A stretch of 63,976 nt of DNA, counting the filler, from Dugesia japonica (lineage: Eukaryota): NCBI GenBank assembly GCA_001938525.1. It is 6 parts of 6 records of this genome, joined end to end, with 100 filler letters (N's around TTAATTAATTAA, not from the genome) between each part and the next. Parts side by side here need not be neighbours in the genome. Positions count along the whole stretch, not along the records: positions 42,444 to 55,501 come from MQRL01589347.1; 5 more parts are not named here. One strand, given 5' to 3'. The notes below the pieces were generated by a model. It was given only the letters and a program-made list of their open reading frames with translations, ran no database searches and was not told the origin of the DNA. Positions within the stretch are counted from its first letter, which is position 1. Each line of letters begins with the position of its first letter. Shown here piece by piece: positions 13,760-56,972 of this stretch. The position numbers and the translations under genes were made by a program.

Positions 13760-15547
13760 GATATTGAAGCTGTTCTTGTACCAGAAGAAGATAGTAGTCT
13801 AGTAAAACATGTTCTTATAGCTGTAAAGCTTTTATTAATTCCATTACTGGATCAAACAATAAAATGCAAGTACTATTCGTTTTCTGGTACCAACTGTTTG
13901 GTTGAGTTTCTACAATGCATTGATTAATTGGTTAATAACGTAATAACCCTTTGGTATAAGAAAAATATGTATGTGTAAATGAACTTGACAACATCAGATC
14001 AAGAAGCCTTTACGAAAACACAAGAAGCAATAAAAACAAGTTGGTTTGTGATCATGATCACTATATTAGAAAATATCTCGGAGTTGCATGCAATAAGTGC
14101 AATTTATCACGCAAGGTTAGAATAAAGTTACCTGTTGTGTTTCATAAATTTAAAGGTTATGATTCACATCACATTATCTAATATGCGCTCAACAAACTNN
14201 NNNNNNNNNNNNNNNNNNNNNNNNNNNNNNNNNNNNNNNNNNNNNNNNNNNNNNNNNNNNNNNNNNNNNNNNNNNNNNNNNNNNNNNNNNNNNNNNNNNN
14301 NNNNNNNNNNNNNNNNNNNNNNNNNNNNNNNNNNNNNNNNNNNNNNNNNNNNNNNNNNNNNNNNNNNNNNNNNNNNNNNNNNNNNNNNNNNNNNAAAACA
14401 AGGGTATATTCCCAGACAAATTTGCAATTTCATATGAAATGCTCGAAAATCAAACCGAATTACCAGCACAATGGTCAGAAATAACAAGTGAAGAATATGA
14501 AATCGCAAATTCGGCATGGATAGAATCAAAAAGCAATAACTTGGTGGAAAATATAATGTATTATATAAAGCTAGATATATACTTGTTGGAAGACGTCTTT
14601 CAAAAATTTCGCAAAAAAGCACTTGAAGAGCATGGATTAAAGCCATTACGATTTGTTTCATTGCAAGGATTGAGTTGGTCAAGTGCTCTCAAGTCGATGT
14701 ATAGTTCCATAGAACTAATCTAAGATGCGTAAATTCATTGACTATTTGAATTGGGAAATTGTGGAGGAATAACGTTTGTGAAAAAATATTATGTTCAGGC
14801 AGATAAGAATACATCACTGCTTTACATTGATATTACTAATTTATATGGTTGGACCATAACACAGCCTTTACCATATAAAGATTTTGAATTTATATCAGAA
14901 AATCAGAAGAAGAAACATACCAGAAGATGTTCGCAAATACCAATAATGAGATTGAGTACCTGCTTGAAATTGATCTTGAAATACCTATCTCAAACATTTA
15001 ATAGATGTCAATGAAAATGATCAAATATTTACTAGAAGTATATAAAATTATCTACAAATTACTAGAATGTCTGGATATTACATTAACCAAGTGGTTATAA
15101 ATTTGAGTAAAGTGCGGATGTATACGCTTCAAGATGAAGAGCTGGAAAAATATCGTCAACAATTGCTTTGTAAAATTTATATTATTGCTGGAGATACAGA
15201 TAGTTTTTTCATATCATGTACTGGAGTAAAAAGAAACTGAATGGATATTCCTAAGGCTAAAATGTTATAGTTTGAAGAAAGCAGATGCTAGTATGACAAT
15301 GAAGGCAAAAGCAATCATTTTAAAACAAACGAACAATTATCATAAAAATTATTTAAATGCATATAACAATGATGGAGACGTAGAAGAACAACCAAACAAG
15401 GTTATGCAGACTAGGCTCCAATCAATAAATCAGCAGATTTACACAATAAAGAGTAANAAACGCGTGTTGTCTTGCCTCGATGATATGCGCTTTTGGAGCG
15501 AAATAAATACTAGTAATGCATATGGTCATAATAAAATTAATAATTAA
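13760..15547 (+). pseudogene. Polinton/Maverick protein-primed DNA polymerase B, decayed
   Basis: VCDHDHYIRKYLGVACNKCNL (endonuclease VII-like), PVVFHKFKGYDSH, DIYLLEDVFQKFR, LQGLSWSSALK, CGGITF, YIDITNLYGW...QPLP, IAGDTDSFF, KRVLSCLDDMRF...AYGH. Confidence 0.9.
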
Positions 15548-22500: not shown

Positions 22501-23744
22501 TTTATTCGTATACAGAATTTAATTCCGAGTTAAAGCATACCAAATTTGAAAACATACGATAAAAAATCGCTAAAAATTTCATTCCAAAAATTCAAATTTT
22601 CAAACTTCTCGACCAAAAATTCAGCAAACCAAAATCGAAATCGAAAATTTTTTCATGTATTTTTATCGACGAATCAAAATTCTCAAATTTTCAGCAGTTT
22701 TTTCAGCATATTATAGTATAGATGATTACGNNNNNNNNNNNNNNNNNNNNNNNNNNNNNNNNNNNNNNNNNNNNNNNNNNNNNNNNNNNNNNNNNNNNNN
22801 NNNNNNNNNNNNNNNNNNNTATATTTAATTGTCTGTAGTCATTACAAAGTATTCTCGATCCATATTCTTTTTTCACAACAAGGGCTGTTTGAAATTATTC
22901 TACCTTTTGCTAGGCAATCGAATTCTCTTTGTACTGGATCAAATCATTCTCCAAATAATTGAAGAGATCTGTAAGAAACTGAATGACATTTGGTGTTGAT
23001 GTTCATCTGAAGATTAGAATTAGCATTTTGTGATATTTTATTTGCAATCGTCACATCTTATTGCCTAGATGATCCGGGTATAATTTTGGTCAGTAAAACT
23101 TTTCGCCGATTTTAAGAATAATAAATTAATAATNNNNNNNNNNNNNNNNNNNNNNNNNNNNNNNNNNNNNNNNNNNNNNNNNNNNNNNNNNNNNNNNNNN
23201 NNNNNNNNNNNNNNNNNNNNNNNNNNNNNNNNNNNNNNNNNNNNNNNNNNNNNNNNNNNNNNNNNNNNNNNNNNNNNNNNNNNNNNNNNNNNNNNNNNNN
23301 NNNNNNNNNNNNNNNNNNNNNNNNNNNNNNNNNNNNNNNNNNNNNNNNNNNNNNNNNNNNNNNNNNNNNNNNNNNNATATTCATTACATTATGTTACATT
23401 TTCAATTAACATTCTCTATATTTATAATAAAAAACACAAATTCTTTTCAATAGATTTCTTTCTAAAATAGCATTGATTTTCCATGAAATAAAACTTTCTA
23501 TTATTCACATGTAAAAAATGTACAAGTGTAAAATAATCATTTAAAATATTAATTTTAGAGATTCAATTTATTTTTATTTATTTACAAAAATTTGTTTATG
23601 TACTTTTCTATTACTCATTGTATATTAATTAAAAAATTAGTAATAATAATTAATTAAATCAATTATTAGTAAATTTTAAATTTTAGTGATTTCGAAAGAA
23701 AAACAATACACTACAGCATTAACCAAGACAGAATTTTTGTGGTC

Positions 23745-24045
23745 CCAAATGCATATGTGAGGGTAGAAATATATGCAATAAAAAATATCACTTACAAAAT
23801 ACATGCACCTTATGTAAGGATACATATATAGGAGAATCATTCAGAACCATCAGCACAAGAATTAAAGAACATCTCAAACAGAAAAAAAGTGAAGTCTTCA
23901 AACACTTTCAAAACAAACATAATGTTTTACTAGAAAATAATCATATTACCTGGAAAACATTAGGAACAGGCTACATTTCTACACTTCACAGAAAAAAAAA
24001 TGAACAAATATTAATTAAAGAGAAGAAACCTGAGATTAACGTGAT
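23745..24045 (+). mobile_element. Penelope-like retroelement GIY-YIG endonuclease fragment
   Basis: Frameshifted translation KCICEGRNIC.KNITYKI...CKDTYIGESFRTISTRIKEHL...EVFKHFQNKH...EQILIKEKKPEIN. Confidence 0.75.
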
Positions 24046-24689
24046 TTTTAACAATTACAATAATTAAAAATTTTCAGAAAAATTCTCTCAATAATTATAA
24101 TAATTAAAAAATGTTTTTTTTCAAATATTTAAAAAAATCTTTTTCAAAAATTAACATTTTCAAAGATTTTAAATAACCACAATAATTAAAAGTTAAAAAT
24201 CAAAATAAAAAATTAAAATAATTTAAAAAATAAATAATTTAAAAAAATAAATAAACCTTTTTTCAAAGATTCTTGATAATTAAAATAACTTAAAAAATAT
24301 AAATAAAAAAAATTAGTAAAATAATTAGAGTAAAAATTTTAATATTAATAAAATACATATCTAAATATTTTAATACTTTAATGCATTAAATTTTTTACAA
24401 AAAACATTTAGGAAAATTTTTAATCAAACTTAATTAAAGAGAATTTTCAGACTTAATTTTAAAAAAAATGTTAATTTCATAGACCAATAAAATCTCAATA
24501 AAAGATTAAGAATTTGTAGCAATGATCGATTTTCAATATGAATATATCAAAAAGTCAACATTCCTGAAGAAGACAAGTGTCGAAAATTTGAATTTCTTCC
24601 ATTGCGAATTACACTTCGAATTTTTTACCGGTCCAACCCTAATTCGAATTTTTTTTCATTTTAGTAACGACCAATCAAAATTCTACATA

Positions 24690-31800: not shown

Positions 31801-32045
31801 ATGTGAAAAGGAATTGATAAATGTAAATTTGTATGGATCAAACATGAATTCAAAAGACCATTACAGCCAGTATATGGAAGCTTATATCTGGTAACTTTTA
31901 TTCATTTAATTTTATATTTTAAAAATCCTTAAATTTTAGTAATTTATTTTATAAATTATTTTTTCTTGATACAATTTTAAATAAACTTTTGATTTTAATA
32001 AATTCCATTTTCAAAAATAAAAAATTTAAATGTTTTTTTAAAAAA

Positions 32046-33095
32046 CTATCTTATATCCCCCTTTTTAAGAAATTCTTTGATTTTCTCTACGTTTCTTTCA
32101 AGACTTTTTCCGTTTGTATCTCGCAGAATGTAGTATCTGTCGTGAACTTTTGTCTTGATCTTATAGGGTCCTTCATAACGATTTTGGCTCTTGTTTCTTG
32201 TTCCAACTTTCACTAAGATTTCATTACCATCCTTGAATTGTCTTTTGGTCAATATCTCATTATCTTGATCTTTTTGCTCTTTTTGAGAATCAGTTTCGTA
32301 CCATTTTTCTCTGCTTACTCTCTTCCAAAATAAGATTTCAGCTGGGGTTTTCCCGATAGTTTTCTGTTTTGTAGCATTCAAGGTAAATTCTATCTCTGGC
32401 AATATATCAGCTTAATTTGAGGTTTTCCTTTTTTTAAGTATCACATTTATAATATCTCGCATTGTCCTAAATTGCCTCTCTATTCGACCATTTGTGTTAT
32501 GATGAAATGAACTTGAAAACCTGAGGGTAATTCCATGTTCAGCTGCGAAATCTTTCATTGATTTTGACTCAAATGCTCTTCCACAATCAACTCTAATTTC
32601 TCTTTGACACCCGAACTTTAATATCCACTTTTCCAATATTGCTCTCTGTATGGTATCTTCATCTTGTCTTGTTATTGCTATCAAGGCTACATACTTACTG
32701 CATTAATCTATTATACTGAGAACAGATTTTTTCGGCCTCTTATATCCGGCAGTGGTCCACAAACATCTTTAAATAACAGGTTCTATAAATAGGTCCTCTT
32801 CTTTCTATTCTTTCAACCAAGGATAGCGTTTCTTTTATATCTTCTACTTTCTCCAATTTTTGCATGATAATCTTTTCTTCTGCCTTTTTACTATCTGCAC
32901 AAATTATTAGCATTTTTTATAAGATTTTTTCTTTCGTCAGCTCTCCATATGCTGGAATTTATCGACCAAGTCTTCCACTTTTTTAAAGAACACATCAAGT
33001 TCTTCACCACTACGACGATAACTTACAAGATTCTGTAAATCTTTTATTATGTCTCTCTTGCTCTCAAAAGCTTATCGCAATCTCTCTCGATATAC
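32046..33095 (-). mobile_element. Ty3/Gypsy remnant (integrase C-half + gag piece), same family as 37176-38812
   Basis: WILKFGCQREIRVDCGRAFES...HHNTNGRIERQFRT, GPY motif, and PPT AAAAAGGGGGA at the ORF end. Confidence 0.9.
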
Positions 33096-37175: not shown

Positions 37176-38812
37176 TTGTTGAATGTTTTTGGCTTAATAA
37201 TCGGAAAAATAAAAGGAGCGATGGTTTATCTAGATGATATTCTCATATTTACTCAAACAAAGGAGCAACATTATGAAATAATCAATAAAGTATTAACAGA
37301 AATTAAGAAGACTAGTCTTAGAGTTAATCCGGAGAAATTTCAATTCATGCGAAAGGTGATCAAATTTTTGGGACACGTTATCAGTAAAGAAGGTGTCAAA
37401 ACAGATCCAACTAAAATAGAAGCAATTAAGAACTTTGTTAAACCAAATTGCGTTAAGAAAATTTGCAATTACTATCGCAAGTTTATTAAAGATTATTCAA
37501 AGAAAGCTAGATTGCTGGAACAGCTGTATAGTGGGTCAAGTAACAAGAAAATTGAATGGGTAAATGAATTAAAAGAAGTTTTTAATGGATTGAAAGAAGC
37601 ACTTATAATGTCTCTAATATTATGTTTTCCAGATATAAATAGAAGATTTATTTTGGACACGGATGCGAGTTTCGATATAATTGGGGCAGTACTATCTTAA
37701 AAGGACAACAATGGGCAAGAAAAAGTAATTGCATATGGATCACACGCAATGATGAGTCATGAGAAAGGATATTATACTACGCGGAAAGAAGATCCCAAAA
37801 GTGGAAAATTAAAAACAAGAATGTTAAATACAGTAGATATTCAAGAAAAACAAGGCAATTTTTGTAAGAATGATGAAGGAACATGGATACCCGATGATGA
37901 AGTAGAAGAGGTTATAATGAGGATACATCATCTTTTGTGTCATGCTAGAGCAGAACAAGTAGCAGCGTATATGACATAAATATAACGCGAAACATTTGTG
38001 GAGCAAAGTACAAGAGGTTGTGCAAAGCCGTATAACATGCCAGAAAGCTAAAGTGTTGACAACCAAAACGAAGGAAAACACAAAAAAGACGCAGCCAGCC
38101 GAAATGTTTGAACTGTTATTTATAGATGTGCGTAAACCACTGCCAGAGACCAGAGGTCAAGAAAATATGTTCTCGTTATAATAGACTAATGCAGTAAGCA
38201 TATAGCCTTGATAGCGATGACAAGACAAGATGAAGATACCATACGGAAAGCAATATTGGAGAAGTAGATATTTAAGGTTGGGTGTCCGAGAGAAGTTTGA
38301 GTTGATTGTGGAAGAGCTTTTGAGTCTAAATCAATGAAAGATTTTGCAGCTGAACATGACATTACCCTCAGGTTTTCGAGTCCATATCATCATAACACAA
38401 ATGGGCAAATCAAGAGACAATTTAGAACTATGCGGGATCTCATTAATTTCATTAAAGAAAGGAAAACCTCAGATTGAGCAAATGTATTGCCAGAGATAGA
38501 ATTTACCATAAACGCTACAAAACAGAAACTATCGGAAAAAGCCCTGCTGAAATCGTATTTGGGAAGAGAATAAGTGGAGAAAAAAGGTATGAAACCAATA
38601 CTCATAGAGTGCACAAAGAACAAGGTGAAGAAATATTAATCAAAAGACAATTCGAGATCGATGATGAGGTCTTAGCGAAAGCTGAAACAAGAAACAAGAA
38701 CCAAGATCGTTATGAAGAAGATTCATGACAGACGTTAGATCCTGGAAGATAAAAACGGAAAAAGTCTTGAAAGAAACATAGAGAAGATCAAAAAATTTCT
38801 TAAAAAGAGGGA
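37176..38812 (+). mobile_element. Ty3/Gypsy pol remnant (RT-RNaseH-integrase) followed by PPT
   Basis: VYLDDILIF, KFLGHVIS, LDTDAS, HHLLCH..CQK, integrase core; AAAAGAGGGA|TGTGAG gives a putative 3' LTR start at 38813. Confidence 0.92.
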
Positions 38813-39169
38813 TGTGAGTATGTTTTAAGCAAGTTGAAATTTTTGTGTGGTTGATGATCGTTTTTCTTGAAATTTTTTTTGAAAAAGATTTAAATTTAAA
38901 TGCAAAATTAAATAACGAATAAGTAATTGTTTTTAAATTTTAGTAAGTAAACAGAAAATTTATTTTAAAAATCTTAATAAAAAATGAATGAATAATGAAT
39001 TTAAATAAATTTTAAAAAAATCTTAAGAAACGATCACCAATTTAAAACAGGAATTTAATTTGTTTAAAAACACAATTAGTGTTGTTATAGTTTTTTTATA
39101 ATAATAAATCGTTGTAATGAATTGGAATTCTGATGTTAATGATTCAATGAGTTTTCAAAACCCAACTAA

Positions 39170-39630
39170 CAATGTCCATTAGCTTACTGCATTTACTAGT
39201 TTACTGTGTCTATAAGCTTACTTTGTTCATTAACATACTGGGTCTCTTAGCCCAGTGTCACCATCGGCTTACCATACCTATAAGCTTACTGTTTTTATTG
39301 TTTATTGTATCTACTAGCTTACTGTGTCCTTTAGTTTTCCAAGTCTATTTGCTTATGTGTCTATTTTCTTACTGTACTAATTGGTATGCTATCTACCAAC
39401 AACTTATTACGTCCATTGGTTTACCATATCTATTAGCTCATTTTGTCAATTGTTTAACTATGTTTAATGGCTTACTATACTCATTGATTTACTGTGTCTT
39501 TTAGTTCATGGCGTCTAATAGTCTACTGTGTCTATTGGCTTACTGTACCTTTCAGCTTGCTTTATTTAGTAGCTTACAGTAACCAATAGCTTACTTTGAT
39601 CTAATGTGCCGATTAGCTTACTGTAACTGG
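39170..39630. repeat. Degenerate ~20-nt minisatellite (AGCTTACTGTGTC-like)
   Basis: Repeated GCTTACTGT units; explains spurious ORF 39172-39504. Confidence 0.7.
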
Positions 39631-42957: not shown

Positions 42958-44642
42958 AATAATCCACTTCTGTATGAGGAATTCAAAAATCAAAAAAATG
43001 GATTCTCTATGAAGCCATCAATTGATTTGAAAATTGGTCGGCAATTATTCAAAGATAAATTAAGAGTCAATTTCAGAATGTCTCGATGTTTTGATAGAGA
43101 TAACCGAATGCGTCTCGCAGTTAAATGCCTCACCAAAGGTGAATTAAAAAATCATTTAACTGAATTCTTTAAAAGTCCAAATTTGGATTTATTGAAAAGA
43201 AAATATGTTCATAGAAATTTTGGTAATATTCAGAATGTAATAGATAAGATATCGAAATCGCCTTCCTCGAATAAATTGAGCATAAATGAAATTATAAATT
43301 TAAAAAATTCTAGGTAAAATTTGTATTGATTATTCTAAATTGGAATTTCATGTCAAATTTAGAGCAGTAAATATCAGTTCTGAGAAACCGGTCAGTTCGG
43401 ACCACATACGACCGGTCACTGGTAATGATATTCGTTTTTAATAGTGTTGTATTGCATTTTTTTACAATAAATATTGTTGTTACTATATGTTTTAAATTTT
43501 TTTTAATGTGATTAATTTTTGAACTTTGGTTGTGACTGTCGTATAATAATAATAAATAATAATAATAATAATAGATTTATAATGTGGTGCAGTGTTTTTA
43601 GGGATTTGAATGGTGTTTGTTCTTTACAAGCTTTGCAATGCTAATTTTTAGAAATTTTTTTTTACAAAATTTAGCTGTAAATATTTTTATAATTTACTTT
43701 TCAAATATTCGCTTACTTGAAAATATTCCAATTTTTTCTTTGTATAGTCCAACATTTTTTGTTTTTNATGAAATATTGGATATTATTAATTTAATTAAAT
43801 TTCATAATTTAAATTGTGATTCTTTTTATATTATCTTTGGAAATTTTATGTCATTAAAACTAATATTTACAATTCATTTTAAATATATTGATATTAAAAA
43901 ATATGATCAATATATTTTAAAAAGCAATACAATTTAATGAAGGTTATGTAATATTAAATTTTTCTTAAAATTTTAAGCATGAATACATTTCAAAGAGAAT
44001 ATGCAATTTAAAAATTTTTTTGGCAGCCTGGTCCTTGAAAATTTTATTTTTTAAGTTAGTTTATCTTTTAACTGTTAAATAATATTTGTCGAATGTGTTT
44101 AAAGTCAATTGTTGTATATGTGATAATATTTTAATGAAATGTTCTTCTATGGAATTTATTTAATCCACGAAATGGTTTTATTTTCCAGTAATCAGTTTCA
44201 ATTTAAAAATAATATACACATTGAATAACTACTTTTCAACTTTTTTACGAATTTTCTAAATATGTTAAATCAATTCTTTTTTATTATTAGTTTCTGGATA
44301 TTAGCGAAATATAAATTGAAAAATTTGCAAGTTTTTTAGATATAGAAAGATGACAGAAAGAATCAAATTCATTCTTTCTGATGGTTTACATTTTAGTTTA
44401 TATTATTCAGAAACTGACAAGCGATTGTACGTTAATACTGGACTGTCTATACCAAAAAGAAATACAATATCTAATGAAGCCTTATGTTTGGTTCCTACTT
44501 TTCAAGTTTCTAAAGAAATTAGGTTGGCAATATTAATGAGAATACTTGAGTTCTATTGAAATATTGATTTAGGAATCTCAGATTAAAATTTGGAGCAAAA
44601 TTTCTGAAGAAATTGAGTCGAAAGCCCTTTCATCAGAGTTAA
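42958..44642 (+). CDS. Candidate exons of an unidentified host gene (42958-43313, 43363-43421, 44340-44522, 44573-44642 stop)
   Basis: Open frames bounded by AG/GT with 49- and 50-nt introns in matching phase; stop followed by AATAAA at ~44682. Linkage between 43421 and 44340 is unresolved; no recognisable domain. Confidence 0.45.
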
Positions 44643-47260: not shown

Positions 47261-47678
47261 AGCCATCAGCTCATATAATCTTGTTTAAGTAGATAAATGC
47301 ATGCGCATAACACCAATGCCTTCTCGATGCAAATGGTTTTCCAACCGACTTTTTAAATAATGTTTGAATTCTCAAACTTATCATTATTATTAAATAAAGA
47401 AGATTCATTTAATAAAAATTATAGTATTAATCATTTCAGTATTTTTAAATAAAGAAGTGTTGGGATCGGATATAAATATACACACACAAATATACATACC
47501 TATACAAAGATGTAAATAATAATCATCAATCAATCAATCTAGCCAATTCCCAAATTCACAATCAATCCTCAATGAAGCATTGTACAAATCTCCAAAGCAG
47601 ACATTTTAATATGATTAATTGACCTGACAATTGAATTTTAGTCATTATTTATTGATCAATTTATTAATTTTATATTTT

Positions 47679-49351
47679 TGTTGGGGTTTTATCTAGGTTG
47701 GCTGATTTTTTAAATTAAGTCTAGTCTAGGAGATTCAAATTTTATTTATGTCTGGTCTAGCCTAGTGAAACCCCGCGAAGAATTTAATCTGGTGTCCCCA
47801 AAAATCCAGATCTGTGGAGTAGAGCCGTTGACTCGTAACTAGTAGTTCAAGTGCGTGCTCGCATTCCTTTGGTTAGGGTTCATATTTCATGATACTTGCT
47901 TGATTTGTAAGACATATTTAACTCTTACTAGTTATTCTCTTATTAGTTCATACTTCATTAGTTTCCAATTTGTGTATCGTTTATTAGTATTTATTTTATT
48001 ATCTAGTTCAATCTTAATTAATTACAATTTTTACTGGTTTGTTGTTACTAACAGGAGGAATTAATCAATAGTTATCATGTTTGGAAAAAATTCTTAATCA
48101 CTATTAACCCTTAATAATTTAATTACGAAACAAATACTTCCTAGAATTTTAAAAGTTATGCAGCTAATTAATAATTCAAAACTGGTTAATGAAATATATA
48201 TATTGCTAAGATAGGATACAGCAAAAATTTAAAATTACATAAATAATCAGAACTTACATGAGCCGTGAATCGATCCGAAGCAAGCACGGGTTAAATTGAA
48301 TTATCGCGATCACCAATTATAATGACGTGGCGTATTCCACTTCATCATTAACTCAGGGTCTTCTTACGCCTAACAAAGATTATCATTCCGGGTCATAGAT
48401 CTTCCATGATTTTCGAAGTCGGAAACCATTGCAAAACATTAATTTTAAAACCAGTAATTACCTTTGAGATAAATTTTGATCCAAAATTTGATTGTGTGAA
48501 AATTTGATTGAATTTCTTCTGAAATTGAAACGGTATTTATACTAATTTTTTCTTACATCCCGTTCTTTCTACTGGTTACGGGGCGTCGTACGATTCTTCT
48601 AACGTTCTTATTGGCTTGATTTTCACACGAGTTCTTTTTTTGGGTTGAATTTTTGGAATTCCAAAATTATTGGAGTTCCATAGGTTAATCTTTAAACGCT
48701 GATGTCTTCTTTCTTAGTCTTGTTATGATTTTTTAACTTGGATTTTCGAAATCTCTGATTTTATCTGGTCTATAATTGTCTCAATTGCTAATTTTAATTC
48801 TATAGGAAACTTTCATTTTCCTAACTTTTGTAGAAAATTTAAATTTCTTTTTTAAAATAAATCATTTTAATTCATATGATTTATTTTATTTAAATAAATA
48901 ATTTATTTTAAAATATTAATTTGATGTTTATTTTTCTTTTCTGGTCTGGAATTAATTTAACTTCATTCTTTTCTTCCTCTAATTAATTCATTTAATTTAT
49001 TTTCTCTTTCTTTGATTATTCATGCAATATGATTTCCTTATTTTCGCCTAATGAACTAATTACTTGGATAACACTTATTATTTTCTTTGTTCTGATAACC
49101 GCTTTTATAACTTCTTTTCTTCATTGGCTTTTTATTTCTGCTCTGTTTCCTGCTGTAATTCTGGATTTTCATAGTTATCTCATATGTTTTAGGTTCCTAA
49201 TTCGGTTTTCTCTTTCATTATTTATTTCTTCAATTAAATTCTGTCTTTCTTGGGTCTGAATTCTTCGTTTTCTTTTCTTATGTCAATCTTTTAAATATCG
49301 AGTTCACTTATCACCATTTTTATTTTCGGTACCAGGTGTTTAACCTCAACA
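47679..49351 (-). mobile_element. TG...CA solo-LTR-like element, short relative of 49380-53639
   Basis: Ends TGTTGGGG / GGTGTTTAACCTCAACA, with TTTT on both flanks (weak TSD). Minus-strand CCAAT (48614-48610), TATAAAT (~48541) and splice donors. Confidence 0.6.
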
Positions 49352-49621
49352 TTTTTATTAATTTTATAATTTGTACATTTGTTGGGGTCCCATCTGAGTT
49401 CAATGCAAAAAAAATATCGCGGCGGGGGAAAACAGCCCTCATAGGAACCCGTTCAAGAATTTAACCTACCGCCCCTAGGGTAGGTATTCAGTTCATGGTG
49501 GTTGACCTCACTCTTAATGGGTGGTGCACGCCCACAAACCTTTATATTTGGGTTCAACTATTTCCCTTACATTACACAAAATTTAAACCAATACTCATTG
49601 GAACATTTATTAATATAACAT

Positions 49622-50004
49622 TTATGGGTCGCTTAGCACACTAGGGTCTAACCATTGATCGGGGTCGTCTATTGTAAAATTGAATGTGGCGACATCGTCG
49701 TCGGCGTTCAAATGAATCCTAGCTGGATTCTTAATCTGTCGGGAAAGGTCAGAGATGTACTGTTTTAGGAAGTCTATTTTTCTCAACAGTAACTTCCTGT
49801 TCTCTGCCTTTAGGGCTTTGGTTTGGATTGCCAAGTCGTTTTGCTTACGGACTAGCAAATCCAATTTTTTTATGAGCTGATTTCTCTGGTCAAGGTGCTT
49901 AAGAAGAGTCTGTTCTGATTTGCGTTTTAAGTGTCGCTCTAATAATACACGGCGCAGGGTACGGTGGCACCTCTTCAAACTAGTAGGAAACACAATTCGA
50001 GTCA
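49622..50004 (-). CDS. Cassette ORF4: basic + coiled-coil (bZIP-like) protein with acidic tail; terminal exon without its own Met
   Basis: Acceptor TTTTTCTTTAG|TG (AG 50006-50005), 127 open codons, AATAAA at 49611-49606. Confidence 0.65.
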
Positions 50005-50124
50005 CTAAAGAAAAAGTATAATTAACTTAGAGAATAATTAATCTACAACTCGGAAAAAATAAGTGACAAAAGAGTTTTACACAATTAAATAATTTATTAA
50101 TTCAAATAATGATGCAATATCAAG

Positions 50125-50483
50125 TTAGGAGCGGCTCGTCTGAGTACTTTTGTCGACCATTAGTGGCTCGAGGGGGATTTTCTCTCGGTGAAGCAAAATA
50201 TCGTTAACCAGTTTATTTTCTCGGTCATGGCTGGACCGGATAATTTCTGAAAAAGATTCCACTTGTTTTTTCCTAGTGCGCTCCTGTAAATGGGAAGCCT
50301 CCGCTTCCCTTTTAAAAAGAACACATTTTCTCTTGTAACGGAGGACTTTACTATTCGCGGTGGCCATTTCCGCCTCCCACCGTCGTTTGGCGAGTCGGTA
50401 GAGGTACCACGTCATTTCGCGGTCCTCGCTAGGGTCTCGGATTTTTTTGGTAGGAGCTGGCTGGCGGTTTAACGAACTATGCA
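50125..50483 (-). CDS. Cassette ORF3: coiled-coil protein ending in DKSTQT; terminal exon
   Basis: Acceptor TTTCTTTGTTTTTCAG|TG (AG 50485-50484), 119 open codons, AATAAA at 50098-50093. Confidence 0.65.
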
Positions 50484-50705
50484 CTGAAAAACAAAGAAAA
50501 TAGTTATCAAAATTGGAATTTATATCGTGATGGTTCAAAATGACATAGTGGTTACGAATCCAATTACTACACTCTAACTTAGCTAAATCGACCTGTAACT
50601 TATAGAACCAATCTGAAATCAAAACACACAAAAATCTATTACGAATTACAACACACCTAACACGTAATTTAGTTAAGCCAATTTTATTATAGATCACCCT
50701 ATACG

Positions 50706-51062
50706 TCACAGGGGAGGAACTGATAAATCCGGCACTGTTGCAGTGTTCTCGGAGTCTTCACTGCCCGTGGGCTCTCTTATCCCCCAAAGCAGGTTATTAA
50801 TGAAAGCCTGTACTGCGGGAGCTGGAGTTGATGTGAAAGGCTGGTAACGGAAAGGAGTTACCAAGTTACGATCCTGGCCTGACCACGACTGGTATTGCTG
50901 TCGCTCACCAAAGTCCCTGATGCGCTCTACGATCGATTCAATAGGAGGTAAATTTGACCGATCCACTAGGATCCCGGCATCACGTTCGTGGGGGTTGTAG
51001 TGCCTACGGAAGACGATTCGACGACTCCTCCGGTCTATGACTCTCTCCCAGATAGATTCCAT
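50706..51062 (-). CDS. Cassette ORF2: 118-aa orphan, Arg-rich N-terminus
   Basis: Acceptor TTGTTATTATTAG|AT ATG (AG 51066-51065), AATAAA at 50688-50683, GC-rich versus background. Confidence 0.65.
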   Translation of the reverse strand: MESIWERVIDRRSRRIVFRRHYNPHERDAGILVDRSNLPPIESIVERIRDFGERQQYQSWSGQDRNLVTPFRYQPFTSTPAPAVQAFINNLLWGIREPTGSEDSENTATVPDLSVPPL

Positions 51063-51177
51063 ATCTAATAATAACAAGGAAAATATTAACTCACATAACA
51101 CAGTATCAAGTGTAGTAAATAATTTATTTAAATTGTCGATATACAACAAAAGAACTTAGATCAACAAAAAAATGAAA

Positions 51178-51360
51178 TCAATCCTCGTCTAGATCTACTT
51201 TCCCTTTGGACGGAAACATTTCCGCGAGACAACGAAGGTCTGTCTCGTTGGGATGTTCATTTTTTCCTTTCGTCAATAGATGGGCGACGAGTTGTTTTAA
51301 TCGAGTAGATTGGCGTTGTCGTCTTATCCATCGGAGGATATGATTCAACTCGGCTGACAT
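51178..51360 (-). CDS. Cassette ORF1: 60-aa basic orphan
   Basis: Acceptor TTTTTTCTATTCAG|TC ATG (AG 51364-51363), AATAAA at 51128-51123. Confidence 0.6.
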   Translation of the reverse strand: MSAELNHILRWIRRQRQSTRLKQLVAHLLTKGKNEHPNETDLRCLAEMFPSKGKVDLDED

Positions 51361-52979
51361 GACTGAATAGAAAAAATGGAGCTTTAAATCATAAACCGGG
51401 GTTTATTTCTAAATTAGATAAATAACGTTTTACTGGAAATCGTTGATAGGGTGATTCGCTCCAACAATCGTGATATTAATTCATGGAATAAATTCAACTT
51501 AGTCCCCGAGGTCAACTTAAGATGGTAGCCATATTTCTAACATTCGTCATGTTGATAGTAAAATAACACGCTATTTATTTTTCTAACAATGTTAATAGTA
51601 ATTGTAGGANNNNNNNNNNNNNNNNNNNNNNNNTTGACGCTACCCATACTGTAACTGGTAATGATAACATTAGAAGTTGATGATCGATTTACTTCGGGAT
51701 TTACTGATATTTAAAATGATACTATTTCCCAGTACGAATTGTTTTCCCGGAACCCCAAGAGAGGTACTTCTAAAAATAATATCGAAAATTTTTTATAACA
51801 CTGGTAGTGATAATATTAGAATTACTCAAAATAATAATCATTTTATTTATAATAAAATTAAATATTCTCGGGTTTTATGGAGTTTAATTTTCTGCGCGTT
51901 GTGGCTACTTAGGAACCTGCCTGTATGTATCTCACTATGGCGATTTTCATTAAATGATGTGTGTGTGCCAGCTCATTCAGTTGTAGGTGTGTTTAGTTGA
52001 GAGATAGTTGGGACTATCAGCATAAAATCAATATGATGATTCACTATCGATAATAATTATTGCGCCCTTATGTTAACTACTATTCATGGTTCTAGGGTGA
52101 CAGTTTTTTTCCTGATGAATTCATGATAATTAATTTTACACTGGATAGAATTATCAAATCGTTATTAGTGGATTTTAACCAATATCAGCATAAGTCGCTT
52201 CCTCACGGACATTCCTGGAATTACTGACAAGCGGGATTACTCTAGGTAATTTATCATTTTCTAATGAAATAAATATTTGGAATTCTCGTGGTTTTATCTT
52301 TAGTTCTAATAATTGATTTGATTTATATATTAATTTTAAATGTATGATCACAAGCTAAGAAAAACAGCCTGATCTAACTTTCGGTTTAAATGTGAATCTT
52401 CGTATATTACTTAAAAGGAATTGGGTCGGATCACACTATTTTCCAGTAGATAGCTTATTTAATGCAATGAGGGATTAAAAAGGACAAATATCCCTATTTT
52501 TAAATCGTGTATAAGATTACCATCTAAAAACCAATTTTATACTAAATGTTCACTGTTCATCAACTGCGTTAATTATTTTCAGAGATAAAATAATAGTTAA
52601 GATATAAATTTTATTCGCTATTAAAATAGATTATATTCAACCTTTCATAGATTAACATTTAGCATAAAATAATATTTTACTTTTTTAGTCAAATTAAAGG
52701 TTTTCTGCAACGGGTTTCTTTCCTTTGAATAGTTAATACCGAGTTGGCGATTCCGAATCTGAGACTCAGATTTGGAATTTATTATATTTTGTTCCTTATA
52801 TTTTACTCACAAGGTGGATAGACATTTAATTTACTATAATTCTTCGGAATTTCGATTGAGTTGTACGGTTTACACAGAGAATTTTACAGAATTTTCTTCT
52901 TATGAATATGCAACAGTCAGTGCTTAGTTGGAAGTTTTAATTTTTTGTGTTGTTGTTCATTCTGCTAAAACTAAGTGTC

Positions 52980-53180
52980 CTTTTATAGGATTTTCCGATG
53001 CAACTCGGCATCATTCTTATTGGGGGGTATTTTTGTTTNAAAATACTGGTATCTCATTGGCGCTAGCGTTACAATTGCAGAATTTTCACAGAGTTTTAGA
53101 GCTCTGATTGGTAAGTATTTTTAAAGGGCCATATGATGGCTTTTTCTTTGTGTTATTTTTATTTTTAGGCCTCCTATTGG
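52980..53180 (-). promoter_or_regulatory. Pol II promoter of the cassette element: four CCAAT boxes + TATAAAAG
   Basis: Minus-strand CCAAT at 53180, 53111, 53060 and 53023, and TATAAAAG at 52987-52980, all pointing toward the four ORFs. Confidence 0.65.
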
Positions 53181-53854
53181 TTCAATCTTGTGGAACCTGC
53201 AGCAGCTTTCTGGATGAGGGTAAGTTTTTCCTTCTTAGCAGTTTTAATGCATCTTGTTGTTCTCTTTCCATATTTTCTTCTCCGGGTTCCTTCCGATTTC
53301 CTTGTGNNNNNNNNNNNNNNNNNNNNNNNNNNNNNNNNNNNNNNNNNNNNNNNNNNGAAGTTATTCGGGTAAAACGGATTTTGTCTTAATTATAATTAAT
53401 TTTTTTGTTTAATTAATTATTATTTTTTTCATATTCATTCCTTCTTTTGCTGTCTATTTTCTTTAATAATTTTATTAATTTTGTGATTATTATAATTAAT
53501 CGTATTTGATTTGGTCTTCTGAGTTTCCATCTAATATCATTGTCTGGATTTTTCTTCCGGTAATCTCTATTTTAATACTGGGTCATTCCTGGCCCCCTTC
53601 GACTTTGCTTCTCATTCCTCTGGGTGTTTCGCCCCAACACATTTATTGTTATAATTATTTTTATATTTTATCCATTTATTGACAATTGAATTTAGAGTTT
53701 GTTATGTTAGTAGAGTTATTAACTTTGTACATTGTGTTGCGTCAAAAATATCATTTGTTTGAATCAACTATTTGTAATAATAAAAAAACTTTTGAAATTC
53801 AAATCTTGTTGATTACCATATTGTTAAAATGCAAAATAATTGGGAACACAGAAT

Positions 53855-54820
53855 TGGTGTCAGAAGTGGGATATCAGAAAACAATCATGTTTCAATCAAC
53901 TTTCCAAATTATTTTGAAAATCCTTCAGTATGGTTTATGCAGTTCGAAGCCATTTTTTAGCTATCCAATATCACAAGGCCAAAAACAATGTTCCTTCACT
54001 TAATATAAAATTTGCCATCAAATGTTCTCGACGAATTTCAAGAATATCTGAACTTCAACTCTAAAATGGCATATGAAAATTTAAAAGAAGCCATAATTCA
54101 AACCAAAAGAAAATCCATGTCATACCACATGTAGCAAATCTTTGAGAAATNAAGGCACAACAGTGATCGACAACCATCAGAGATTCTGAGGCAAATGTCG
54201 AGGCATTTCAAACAGATCGATCCACAAACAGATATCAATAACAATCTATGCTCCATTGCGCATTCATCCAATCGCTTCCAAAACCAATCGCGCAGTATCT
54301 AATTTTAAAAGACTCTAAATCCAAAAAAGATCAGGGACTTATGGCAGAAAAAATTAATGAACGTCAAGGCTGATTTCGAGGTTCAACAAATTTCTCAATC
54401 CTCGAACAACCACACAGAAATCATATCAATGATGAATGATTTAAAGACTGAAATTTCAGCGATTCGAATCAAATCAAATGAAGCAGCCAAGACAGTAAGC
54501 TCAGATGATATATGTTATTTTCACAGACGATTTTGAATAAAGGCATGAAAATGCCAACATAAATGCAAATTTTCTTCAAAGAAAGATCAGGGATCTCAAT
54601 GATGCCGATAGCTGCGATCCCAAACCTCAAATCGGTAACACCGATATTCACAGTGTTTTTTAAAACTTCTAGTGAAAACTTCGCTTTTCTCAAAGACATA
54701 GGAGCAGACATCAGCGTTCTTCCATAAAAAATATTTAATGCCGATACAAAACCAGCTGTACCAAATTCAATTGCAGCAAACAACGTTCCGATCAGCTCTT
54801 TTGGAACAAGAAAATTGGCA
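53855..54820 (+). mobile_element. Ty3/Gypsy gag-protease fragment related to 28610, cut by a Polinton-like end
   Basis: 18-nt PBS TGGTGTCAGAAGTGGGAT (complementary to a tRNA-Leu 3' end), gag motifs, protease LKDIGADISVLP. Confidence 0.85.
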
Positions 54821-55501
54821 AGTAGGGGGATAGTAGCACCCGGTAACAATATTTTAAGCAGTTATCGAGGGGACCCACCGGGGGGGGGGCTCGGAAACAC
54901 ATTACGCTTGATCTGCGTTTTTATAACTATGATTTTTGTGATGGTTTTTTTCCAAGATTTTTGGGATCAAAAATTTTTTGATCGGATCAAATTTTTTTTG
55001 ATCGGATCAATTTTTTTAATCTTTATTTTTATCTTTTTTTTACCTTTTTTTTTTAGAGGGAATTTTTGTTTTAATTAATGGACTTTTTGTTTTAATAATT
55101 AACTTTTTTTTGTTTTAATTAATGGAAATGGTTTGTTTTAATTAATGAACTTTTTTTTTGTTTTAATTAATGAATTTTTTTTGTTGTAATTAAAGCTGGA
55201 ATTTTGTTGGTAATTAAAATTTTAATATTTTTTTTTTGACGGGAAATTCAAAAAAAAATCATTTTGGTGAGAAATACAAAAAAAATCTTTTTGCCGGGAA
55301 ATTCAAAAAAATATTTTTGGCGAATAATTTAATATTTTTTGAAAGGAAATCTAAAGTTTTTCATTTTAATCGGGGGAAATCCTTTTAATATAATTAAATT
55401 TAATTAAATTAATTGATTTATTTAATGAATTATGCATGGTATGGGCAGTCTCTATATTTATGCATGGTATGGGCAGTCTCTATATTTATGCATGGTATGG
55501 G
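54821..55501 (+). mobile_element. Polinton-like left terminus with subterminal tandem repeats
   Basis: AGTAGGGGGATAGTAGCACC start, then short tandem arrays (TTTTGATCGGATCAA; TTTTGTTTTAATTAATG; 28-bp TATGCATGGTATGGGCAGTCTCTATATT). Confidence 0.7.
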
Positions 55502-55999
55502 NNNNNNNNNNNNNNNNNNNNNNNNNNNNNNNNNNNNNNNNNNNNTTAATTAATTAANNNNNNNNNNNNNNNNNNNNNNNNNNNNNNNNNNNNNNNNNNN
55601 NTTTATCGTGGCGCATGGAATTTATGAGACATTGTACTGTAAGATTTGTATACTTATAAATAAATGATATCAATCATGGTATTTTTTAAACGCTTTTTTA
55701 ACTCCCTTAATTTATTTTAACTGATAATGTTACTTAATAATTTGATGCTATAACAATTTTAGTAAATACGCAAGATACGGAATAACAGATGGAAACATAA
55801 GAACATAACCGTATTAGTTTTATAGAAAATGATGGGGAGTGATTTTTAAAGTTACAAACTATATGTGTTAACGGATCACCTTTACAGCATTTATTAGAAC
55901 TTTTATATCAACTTAAATTGTCGAATTAAATGATAAATACCAATATTAACAAAAGAAAAATTTTTTATGATCAAGTTTATTAATGATAATGTAAGGAAA

Positions 56000-56972
56000 A
56001 CAAAATTTTACATCACATATAATTATCCGAAAGAAAATTTTTACTTGAATTCAATTTTTGTTGAGTAAAAGTATTGATTTCCGCAACGGGGTTTTTTGTT
56101 AACACTGCACCAGTCATGTTTTGATCCTGACCAACTGAAATTTCCTCGGCTTCTCAAATTTCTTAAAATTTATAACTGATTCAAAATTCTTAAACAACTT
56201 CGCAAATTACGCTATGAGTAAATCGGAGAACACTGATGGGTGATATTTACGCAGGTATAAGTGGCAAGATAATAGTTCCGAATATCCAAGTATGAAATGA
56301 GAGTTAAATGTAGTTTTTCTAACTTCGGTTGATAAATTACAATTAATGGTTTTTTCTGTTAAATTTGAAAATCCNNNNNNNNNNNNNNNNNNNNNNNNNN
56401 NNNNNNNNNNNNNNNNNNNNNNNNNNNNNNNNNNNNNNNNNNNNNNNNNNNNNNNNNNNNNNNNNNNNNNNNNNNNNNNNNNNNNNNNNNNNNNNNNNNN
56501 NNNNNNNTATTTTTAGAGAAACACCTGACATCGGTGTCTTTGTTTTATTTTTATTTTCTGGACGCTCATTGGCTAGATTTTTGAATCCTTACCATACCCC
56601 TCTGGAAGGTGGTACGTTTTTTCTTTTTTGGATTCTAATTGCACCGATTTGTTATCTGTGCAGTTTTTCTTGTTTGAACTTTCTCCGACGTTTGGGACCG
56701 GAGTTATCAGCAAAAAACATATTTTTAACTAATTTNNNNNNNNNNNNNNNGTTCGAAATTAATTAATTTTTCCATATTAATTAATTATTTTCTATAATAT
56801 TTTTTCTTGTTAATTCTTTTCATTTTTTAATTTTTTCTTAATTATTGATCATACGGGGCTTCTATTTTCCCCGCATCTTCTTTATTTTAACTTCATTCCT
56901 TTTCATGGTGCTTTTGTGCTTTATTTCTTTCCTTGTAAATTCCGATATTTTAGTGGGTGTTTCACCCAAACA
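56000..56972 (-). mobile_element. Third TG...CA family member, only one end visible
   Basis: Ends GGGTGTTTCACCCAAACA like 53639; shares GCAACGGG and CTCATTGG blocks with 52700-53060. The left boundary is approximate. Confidence 0.55.

What the first reader, a model, noticed from the sequence alone, without database searches (positions are those of the whole stretch)
49380..53639. LTR-like unit carrying a virus-style cassette of four alternative terminal exons
Seen: TGTTGGGG...CCCCAACA ends, a CATT TSD, a CCAAT x4 + TATAAAAG promoter, and four intact GC-rich orphan ORFs on the same strand, in a window where other transposon genes are mostly decayed. Each ORF is preceded by a pyrimidine tract + AG placed exactly 2 nt before an in-frame codon (AG|TC ATG, AG|AT ATG, AG|TG CAT, AG|TG ACT; all phase 1). 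Each is followed within ~10-50 nt by its own AATAAA. ORF4 has no Met and so needs a spliced-in start. Known: TG...CA ends with a 4-bp TSD are the retroviral-integrase signature. Inference: one promoter and a shared leader exon are spliced to four mutually exclusive last exons, as in adenoviral or complex-retroviral transcription units, inside a giant solo LTR or a non-autonomous integrase-mobilised element.
Basis: partly seen in the sequence, partly recalled or inferred. Interest (0 to 1): 0.88.

Follow-up and report, generated by a model that had tools for sequence, protein, structure and literature searches.

The report
Giant LTR carrying four spliced genes
A 4.3-kb repeat with retroelement-type ends holds one promoter-like region and four small unknown reading frames, each with its own splice-entry and stop signals; it is likely the lone terminal repeat of a giant retrotransposon that would pick one gene per message by splicing, as some viruses do, but no spliced RNA has been seen yet.

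Summary
Window 49380-53639 (minus strand) has LTR-type ends, a CATT duplication and CCAATx4+TATA. It holds four cassettes (acceptor, GC-rich ORF, AATAAA, GT-rich tract), the only four in the 64-kb window; 0 of 2000 shuffles gave even two.

New points: both ORFs that lack a start codon begin with TG right after the acceptor, so a leader ending in A would build the ATG by splicing. A published planarian GLT2 transposon probe, read by eye, shows the same AG|TG plus open frame. Two related units lie nearby, and one contig set shows a diverged multicopy family whose listed indels avoid the ORFs.

Against or open: three RNA runs show no read at 99% identity and no junction. The donor is unidentified. 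This copy's listed ORF differences are all non-synonymous. No genome is held, so no parent gag-pol was seen. The proteins have no homologues.

Best reading (0.6): solo LTR of a giant gypsy-type (Burro/GLT-like) element that works as an alternative-last-exon unit. New variant of a known kind. Interest 0.62.

The parts
49380..53639 (-). LTR-like unit U1, 4260 bp (likely solo LTR)
   Evidence: multicopy diverged family in contig set X2, all 30 bins covered
53632..53639 (-). 5' short inverted repeat TGTTGGGG; fits TGTTRNR; first 18 nt can form a small hairpin
   Evidence: consensus from PMC3601003
49380..49387 (-). 3' short inverted repeat CCCCAACA; fits YNYAACA
49376..49379 (.). target-site duplication CATT (left)
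53640..53643 (.). target-site duplication CATT (right)
52981..53180 (-). Promoter-like region: four CCAAT boxes and TATAAAA; start of transcription inferred near 52957
   Evidence: RNA reads of diverged relatives fit only about 52981-53038 (table 7 places)
52675..52834 (-). Candidate leader donors: 52834, 52806, 52680 follow an A (fit phase 1); best-consensus site 52810 follows a T (does not fit). Not resolved
   Evidence: the 52680 site aligns with the same motif in U3 within a weak alignment
51449..51466 (-). Internal copy of the terminal 18-mer (2 mismatches), 104 nt before the first acceptor; unexplained
   Evidence: 0 such matches in 200 shuffles of the unit
51178..51362 (-). Cassette 1: acceptor + ORF1 (60 aa, own Met); AATAAA at 51128
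50706..51064 (-). Cassette 2: acceptor + ORF2 (118 aa, own Met); AATAAA at 50688
   Evidence: no homologue
50125..50483 (-). Cassette 3: acceptor, TG, ORF3 (118 aa, basic); AATAAA at 50098; a ~70-nt part is shared by many diverged contigs and some RNA reads
   Evidence: no homologue
49622..50004 (-). Cassette 4: acceptor, TG, ORF4 (126 aa, no Met, basic N-terminus, one 85-residue helix, acidic tail); AATAAA at 49611
   Evidence: no homologue
49541..49601 (-). Second promoter-like set near the 3' end (CCAAT, reverse CCAAT, TATAAA); weak, TATA not kept in U2
47679..49351 (-). Sibling unit U2, 1673 bp, TGTTGAGG...CCCCAACA, AAAA on both flanks, CCAAT/TATA and a GTAAGT donor, no cassettes
   Evidence: 3' region aligns to U1, score 43 vs best of 100 shuffles 35
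55610..56972 (-). Sibling unit U3, 5' part of an older related copy, running towards a scaffold gap

Best explanation
The unit has retroelement-type ends and four complete last-exon cassettes behind one promoter-like region, and it is likely the solo LTR of a giant gypsy-type retrotransposon that would make four separate mRNAs by splicing one leader to one of four acceptors. SHOWN: ends, duplication, promoter motifs, four acceptor-ORF-AATAAA-GT cassettes in one phase, multicopy family. INFERRED: (1) Pol II starts near 52957. (2) A leader exon ending in A joins one acceptor, and the RNA is cut at that cassette's poly(A) site. (3) For ORF3 and ORF4, which begin with TG, the junction itself would create the ATG, so these proteins could only come from spliced RNA; ORF1 and ORF2 carry their own Met two bases in. 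(4) The small basic and coiled-coil products are likely accessory regulators of the element or of the host nucleus. (5) Full-length genomic RNA would have to read through four poly(A) sites in one LTR, so splicing versus read-through would act as an accessory-gene/genome switch. (6) Recombination between paired LTRs left this copy, which has since drifted and looks silent in the samples tested. The host is likely a planarian (inferred, not shown).
For: Cassette statistics. All four acceptors are followed by TG or by NN-ATG; window frequencies are 5.1% and 1.7%, joint 2e-5, a post-hoc test. The published Schmidtea mediterranea GLT2 transposon probe (PMC8532177 supplement row 29), read by eye on its opposite strand, shows an AT-rich stretch, a T-tract, AG|TG and a GC-rich frame open for at least 78 codons in the same phase. 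Ends match the Metaviridae consensus. No PBS or PPT at the flanks and no terminal direct repeat, as expected of a solo LTR. Two sibling units within 8 kb, same strand. Contig set X2: 5612 contigs laid, 413 at 99%+ identity and 3977 under 95%; 0 of 12 listed indels fall in the ORFs, which are 30% of the unit (p about 0.014; 5 more not shown). Gypsy RT and integrase debris in the window. Giant gypsy elements with accessory ORFs are known from planarians (PMC6431247).
Against: No splice junction, no RNA read at 99% identity, and zero RNA depth over ORF1, ORF2 and nearly all of ORF4 in three runs (114 reads laid of about 35.7 million read, 110 only partly). The best-consensus donor near the promoter is out of phase. 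All 8 listed substitution rows inside ORFs change the amino acid (40 rows shown, 325 not), so this copy shows no sign of purifying selection. All 5 donor-like sites inside ORF2-4 are in phase 1, so consecutive splicing is frame-compatible (phase 2 is excluded by stops). An 8-bp inverted end with a 4-bp duplication arises 19 times in the window. AT-rich spacers gain indels more easily than ORFs, which weakens the indel test. Parent element not seen. One GLT2 primer and one GLT primer do not match the window at up to 3 mismatches.
Confidence: 0.6

Rival explanations
1. The unit is a complete non-autonomous element that moves in this form, using an integrase or Ginger-like transposase supplied in trans; it never flanks a gag-pol. 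The spliced cassette would work as in the best explanation.
For: Three related units of different length within 10 kb, none beside a PBS, PPT or gag-pol in register. Ginger transposons also have TGT ends and 4-bp duplications (PMC2836005). An internal copy of the terminal motif.
Against: Inverted ends are only 8 bp (terminal 330 nt score 22 vs shuffle mean 22), against 40-270 bp for Ginger. No terminal direct repeats for a TRIM/LARD-type RNA route. Purine-rich 5' part, promoter, poly(A) and GT tract follow LTR order.
Confidence: 0.15
2. The ORFs are real but are expressed unspliced from separate internal starts; the acceptor-like tracts are by-products of AT-rich spacers.
For: ORF1 and ORF2 have their own Met. 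A TATAAA lies 41 nt before the ORF3 acceptor. Acceptor-like sites are as common on the opposite strand.
Against: ORF4 has no Met at all. All four acceptors share one phase and the TG/NN-ATG pattern. The same pattern is seen in the GLT2 probe (by eye).
Confidence: 0.1
3. The cassettes are captured host exons or pieces that splice consecutively into one message, or are passengers without function.
For: Donor-like sites in matching phase inside ORF2-4. Non-synonymous differences in this copy. An earlier unchecked note describes a solo LTR with captured gene fragments.
Against: Each cassette ends in a stop plus AATAAA plus GT tract; ORF1 has no donor-like site. No host homologue in searches of 5.8 billion (ORF2, ORF4) and 1.84 billion (ORF3) proteins. 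GC 43-52% against a 27% genome window.
Confidence: 0.08
4. The locus is a full-length element collapsed by the assembler to a single LTR, so the solo state is an artefact.
For: Gappy assembly with 47 N-runs, three inside the unit. No contig spans the stretch.
Against: A matching duplication on both flanks is equally what a true solo LTR gives; the cassette architecture is unaffected either way.
Confidence: 0.07

Closest known systems
Burro / GYPSM1 giant gypsy-like LTR retrotransposons of planarians (PMC6431247 section 7, read in full; primary paper Grohme 2018 not held)
   Same: Giant gypsy-type elements in an AT-rich genome, total over 30 kb with up to 25 kb internal, so multi-kb LTRs; accessory ORFs; proposed to be proviruses.
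   Different: The section describes accessory ORFs and domains of the internal region; it mentions no genes inside the LTR and no alternative last exons. No sequence link was testable here.
GLT2 / GLT transposon families of Schmidtea mediterranea (probes in PMC8532177 supplement; families taken from Repbase by that paper)
   Same: The GLT2 probe shows T-tract, AG|TG and a GC-rich open frame in the same phase (by eye). GLT2 is silenced by SMEDWI-2 and expressed on its knockdown, which would fit silence in ordinary RNA runs.
   Different: One primer of each family does not match the window. The passages read give no structure for GLT2. That GLT denotes an LTR family is my recall, unverified.
LTR-borne or spliced accessory genes of retroelements (MMTV sag, HIV nef, foamy-virus accessory genes: recalled; spliced ORF3 of LTR retrotransposons: PMC5408684 passages)
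   Same: Small accessory proteins made from spliced RNA; ORFs in or overlapping an LTR.
   Different: Usually one LTR ORF and one shared poly(A) site. Here four non-overlapping cassettes each have their own poly(A) signal inside the LTR.
Adenovirus major late unit (recalled) and EBV EBNA-LP (bioRxiv 10.1101/176099 passages)
   Same: One promoter and leader joined to alternative acceptor/poly(A) pairs; EBNA-LP's initiating Met is created by alternative splicing.
   Different: Analogy of mechanism only; no homology, and these are DNA viruses.
Ginger1/Ginger2 DNA transposons (PMC2836005 passages)
   Same: TGT...ACA ends, 4-bp duplication, 2.6-7 kb, may contain introns.
   Different: They have 40-270-bp TIRs, a gypsy-like transposase and target preferences; none is present here.

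Membership tests
LTR of Metaviridae (gypsy) type | Short inverted ends TGTTRNR...YNYAACA | tested here: met
LTR of Metaviridae (gypsy) type | Short target-site duplication | tested here: met
   CATT both sides; weak alone, 19 chance-level pairs in window
LTR of Metaviridae (gypsy) type | TATA, AATAAA and downstream GT-rich tract in order | tested here: met
   but four poly(A) sets rather than one
LTR of Metaviridae (gypsy) type | Dispersed multicopy family | tested here: met
LTR of Metaviridae (gypsy) type | Paired copies flanking PBS-gag-pol-PPT somewhere in the genome | not testable with these tools
   no genome held; no PBS/PPT at this locus
Burro/GYPSM1 | Sequence identity to Burro LTRs; giant polyprotein between the LTRs | not testable with these tools
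   no Burro sequence or genome available; primary paper not held
Burro/GYPSM1 | Dugesiid planarian host | tested here: inconclusive
   27% GC, CpG o/e 0.89, gypsy debris; run labels are coded
GLT2/GLT of S. mediterranea | Sequence match to published primers | tested here: not met
   1 primer of each family, 0 matches at up to 3 mismatches; tests two 20-nt spots only
Ginger DNA transposons | TIRs of 40-270 bp and a gypsy-like DDE transposase | tested here: not met
   PMC2836005
TRIM/LARD non-autonomous retroelements | Terminal direct repeats with PBS and PPT inside | tested here: not met
   end-versus-end direct score 23 vs shuffle mean 22.9; no end-to-end hit in blastn
Alternative-last-exon transcription unit (works-like claim) | Junction reads from one leader to several acceptors, with separate poly(A) sites | tested here: inconclusive
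   no junctions, but next to no coverage

The most novel reading that the evidence does not exclude
A family of giant LTRs that are themselves self-contained multi-gene transcription units of adenovirus-late type: one promoter and a leader that supplies the first base of the start codon, joined to interchangeable last-exon modules that are swapped between families. Every solo LTR would stay a working cassette for small nuclear regulators, and the parent element would switch between accessory mRNAs and genomic RNA by splicing versus read-through of four poly(A) sites. The pattern would be shared with the GLT2 family and undescribed.
Probability: 0.38. Interest if true: 0.83.

Novelty: new variant of a known kind. 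Interest (0 to 1): 0.62.

Why it matters
LTRs are treated as non-coding control elements and solo LTRs as inert promoters. An LTR that carries four alternatively spliced genes, two of them startable only by splicing, would extend complex-virus gene expression to an invertebrate retrotransposon. It would also turn many solo LTRs into potential sources of orphan proteins. If the host is a planarian, it offers testable content for the transposon transcripts released by PIWI knockdown, and a concrete question: how does an element read through four poly(A) sites in its own LTR?

Tried and rejected
GENOME: own-genome search and file not available.

PROTEIN SEARCHES, all without a relative:
- Pfam, 4 of 4 ORFs below cut-offs; PHROGs, 0 of 4.
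- 5.8-billion set, ORF4 and ORF2, near lengths only.
- 1.84-billion HMMER scan, ORF3.
- PDB sequences, ORF3 and ORF4.
- Viral contigs, ORF3 and ORF2; metagenome contigs, ORF3 and ORF4.
- ORF1 was searched only in Pfam and PHROGs.
- ESM Atlas: ORF4 best 0.80; ORF2 best 0.89 to phage portal clusters with only about 90 shared features and low recognition, rejected as noise.

STRUCTURE: ORF2 model unusable (pLDDT 43). ORF4 is one long helix (pLDDT 82) with no viral fold match. A bZIP label was considered and is not supported by Pfam.

DNA AND RNA: two viral contigs with the terminal 18-mer share only those 18 bases. No Rfam match. The 3' end does not fold better than shuffles (z 0.49; U2 z -1.62). 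No RNA holder was listed as such in the run index. Cassettes are not clear duplicates of each other (one of six pairs, ORF2/ORF3, reached by only 1 of 300 shuffles).

READINGS DROPPED: I first read the downstream flank as PBS + decayed gag and dropped that when it proved to be the start of sibling U2. A search with a window ORF to place the host gave two unnamed hits. Earlier-findings look-ups by place, sequence and two word sets were empty.
Full report
SETTING. The window is a gappy, 27%-GC eukaryotic scaffold with gypsy-type RT, RNase H and integrase remnants (3 of 17 pieces tested hit Pfam). No genome is held. The host is not established. Composition, the lack of CpG depletion (o/e 0.89) and the parallels below make a planarian likely; this is inference.

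OBSERVATION. The unit spans 49380-53639 on the minus strand, with TGTTGGGG...CCCCAACA ends and CATT on both sides. The ends fit the Metaviridae integrase consensus TGTTRNR...YNYAACA (PMC3601003, abstract and passages). That signature alone is weak, since 19 such pairs occur in the window. Homology fixes the boundary: a related unit (U3) begins at 56972 with 16 of 18 identical terminal bases and aligns over its 5' part far above shuffles. A third unit (U2, 47679-49351) has nearly the same ends and a related 3' region. There are no long inverted repeats, no terminal direct repeats and no flanking PBS or PPT.

CASSETTES. Four CCAAT boxes precede a TATA box; 1 of 196 TATA-like sites in the window has this. 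Downstream lie four cassettes: pyrimidine tract and AG, a GC-rich frame starting 2 nt later (60, 118, 118, 126 codons), a stop, AATAAA within 10-49 nt and a GT-rich tract. They are the only complete cassettes on either strand of 64 kb, and 0 of 2000 shuffles give two (post-hoc criteria). Acceptor scores alone are not decisive.

THE SPLIT START. ORF1 and ORF2 have an ATG two bases after the acceptor. ORF3 and ORF4, which lack it, both begin with TG. A leader ending in A would complete ATG across the junction. The chance that all four show one of these two patterns is about 2e-5 (post hoc). Donor-like sites after an A exist at 52834, 52806 and 52680, but the best-consensus site (52810) follows a T and is out of phase, so the donor is unknown. 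A start codon made by splicing has a precedent in EBV EBNA-LP (bioRxiv 10.1101/176099, passages). An independent parallel: the S. mediterranea GLT2 transposon probe (PMC8532177 supplement, first 400 of 485 characters shown), read by eye on the strand of its forward primer, runs AT-rich, T-tract, AG|TG, then a GC-rich frame open for at least 78 codons. GLT2 is expressed when SMEDWI-2 is knocked down (passages). One primer each of GLT2 and GLT does not match the window, so this is a likeness of design, not membership.

FAMILY. One contig set of unrecorded kind (X2) gave 5612 contigs over all 30 bins, most 85-95% alike. Summed depth is no copy number, but it is highest over part of ORF3, the 3' end and the promoter. 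Many contigs share only about 70 nt of ORF3 (loose ends at 50194, 50195 and 50265 in 21, 21 and 34 contigs), and one contig skips 49522-50672, which holds cassettes 3 and 4. This suggests modules shared unevenly among subfamilies. None of 12 listed indels lies in an ORF (5 more not shown; p about 0.014, weakened by indel-prone spacers). Against function in this copy, all 8 listed substitution rows in ORFs are non-synonymous (40 of 365 rows shown). dN/dS across copies was not computed.

RNA. Three raw RNA runs with the same species label (about 6, 25 and 25 in 100 of each read; 35.7 million records) gave 114 laid reads: none at 99%, four at 95-99%, and 110 fitting only in part. There is no junction at any acceptor and no depth over ORF1 or ORF2. 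Partial reads cluster at the promoter, in ORF3 and near the 3' end, so distant relatives are transcribed. The splicing test is therefore inconclusive: this subfamily is not detectably expressed in these samples.

PROTEINS. No homologue or fold was found. ORF3 and ORF4 are basic (27 and 26 K+R). ORF4 models as one 85-residue helix with a basic start and acidic tail. A role as nuclear accessory regulators is inference from these features only.

MECHANISM. Most likely (0.6) this is a solo LTR of a giant gypsy-type element whose LTR is itself a multi-gene unit: promoter, leader, choice of one acceptor, cleavage at that cassette's poly(A) site. With the upstream promoter, R would be about 3.4 kb and U5 about 200 nt. 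A weaker promoter-like set at 49546-49601 would instead put all cassettes in U3. Either way genomic RNA must read through four poly(A) signals once. Rivals: complete non-autonomous element (0.15), separate unspliced genes (0.10), captured exons (0.08), assembly collapse (0.07).

COMPARISON AND NOVELTY. Giant gypsy elements with accessory ORFs are known in planarians (PMC6431247, section 7 read whole), and spliced extra ORFs are known in LTR retrotransposons (PMC5408684, passages). Ginger transposons (PMC2836005, passages) and TRIM/LARD elements fail their defining tests. Ten literature searches (listings and abstract starts) showed no description of four alternative last exons inside an LTR. 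The primary Burro paper and its supplements were not held and Repbase is not searchable here; either may already report LTR ORFs or LTR transcripts. PMC11410931, PMC6884822, PMC10954484 and PMC13309565 (passages) add nothing on LTR structure. MMTV sag, nef, foamy-virus accessory genes and the adenovirus late unit are recalled, not checked.

VERDICT. Observation confirmed; interpretation partly supported and sharpened by the split ATG; splicing and parent unproven. New variant of a known kind; interest 0.62.

Noticed in passing
window 47679-49351 (-): Second LTR-like unit with nearly the same ends, CCAAT/TATA at 48541 and a strong GTAAGT donor at 48257 that follows AT, but no cassettes; it starts 29 nt past the main unit. 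The bin covering its 5' end has very high summed contig depth.
   Followed up: partly
window 55610-56972 (-): 5' part of an older related LTR; its terminal motif forms a perfect small hairpin (GGGTG-AAA-CACCC) that is partly kept in the other two units.
   Followed up: partly
window 51449-51466 (-): Internal copy of the terminal 18-mer just before the first cassette; could mark a recombination joint or a protein-binding site.
   Followed up: partly
window 49444-49478: Subterminal motif shared by many contigs, by RNA reads of relatives and partly by U2; no stable fold detected.
   Followed up: partly
window 53796-54900 (+): Decayed gag-protease-like frames (recalled resemblance, no Pfam hit); the unit and U2 appear to sit in AT-rich sequence upstream of them, suggesting nested insertion.
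   Followed up: partly
window 47458-48376 (-): Another possible TG...CA segment ending CCCAACA at 47458, overlapping U2; no clean duplication.
   Followed up: no
window 39173-39595: Array of 17-nt periodic repeats, 17 copies listed.
   Followed up: no
window 32020-32779 and 38113-38844: Two 81%-identical inverted copies next to gypsy pol remnants, likely ordinary LTR ends.
   Followed up: no
window 14163-15547 and 23723-24067 (+): Frames resembling Polinton DNA polymerase and GIY-YIG endonuclease pieces (recalled; no Pfam hit).
   Followed up: partly
window 42958-43317 (+): Orphan 119-aa frame with two unnamed homologues at 64-74% identity.
   Followed up: partly
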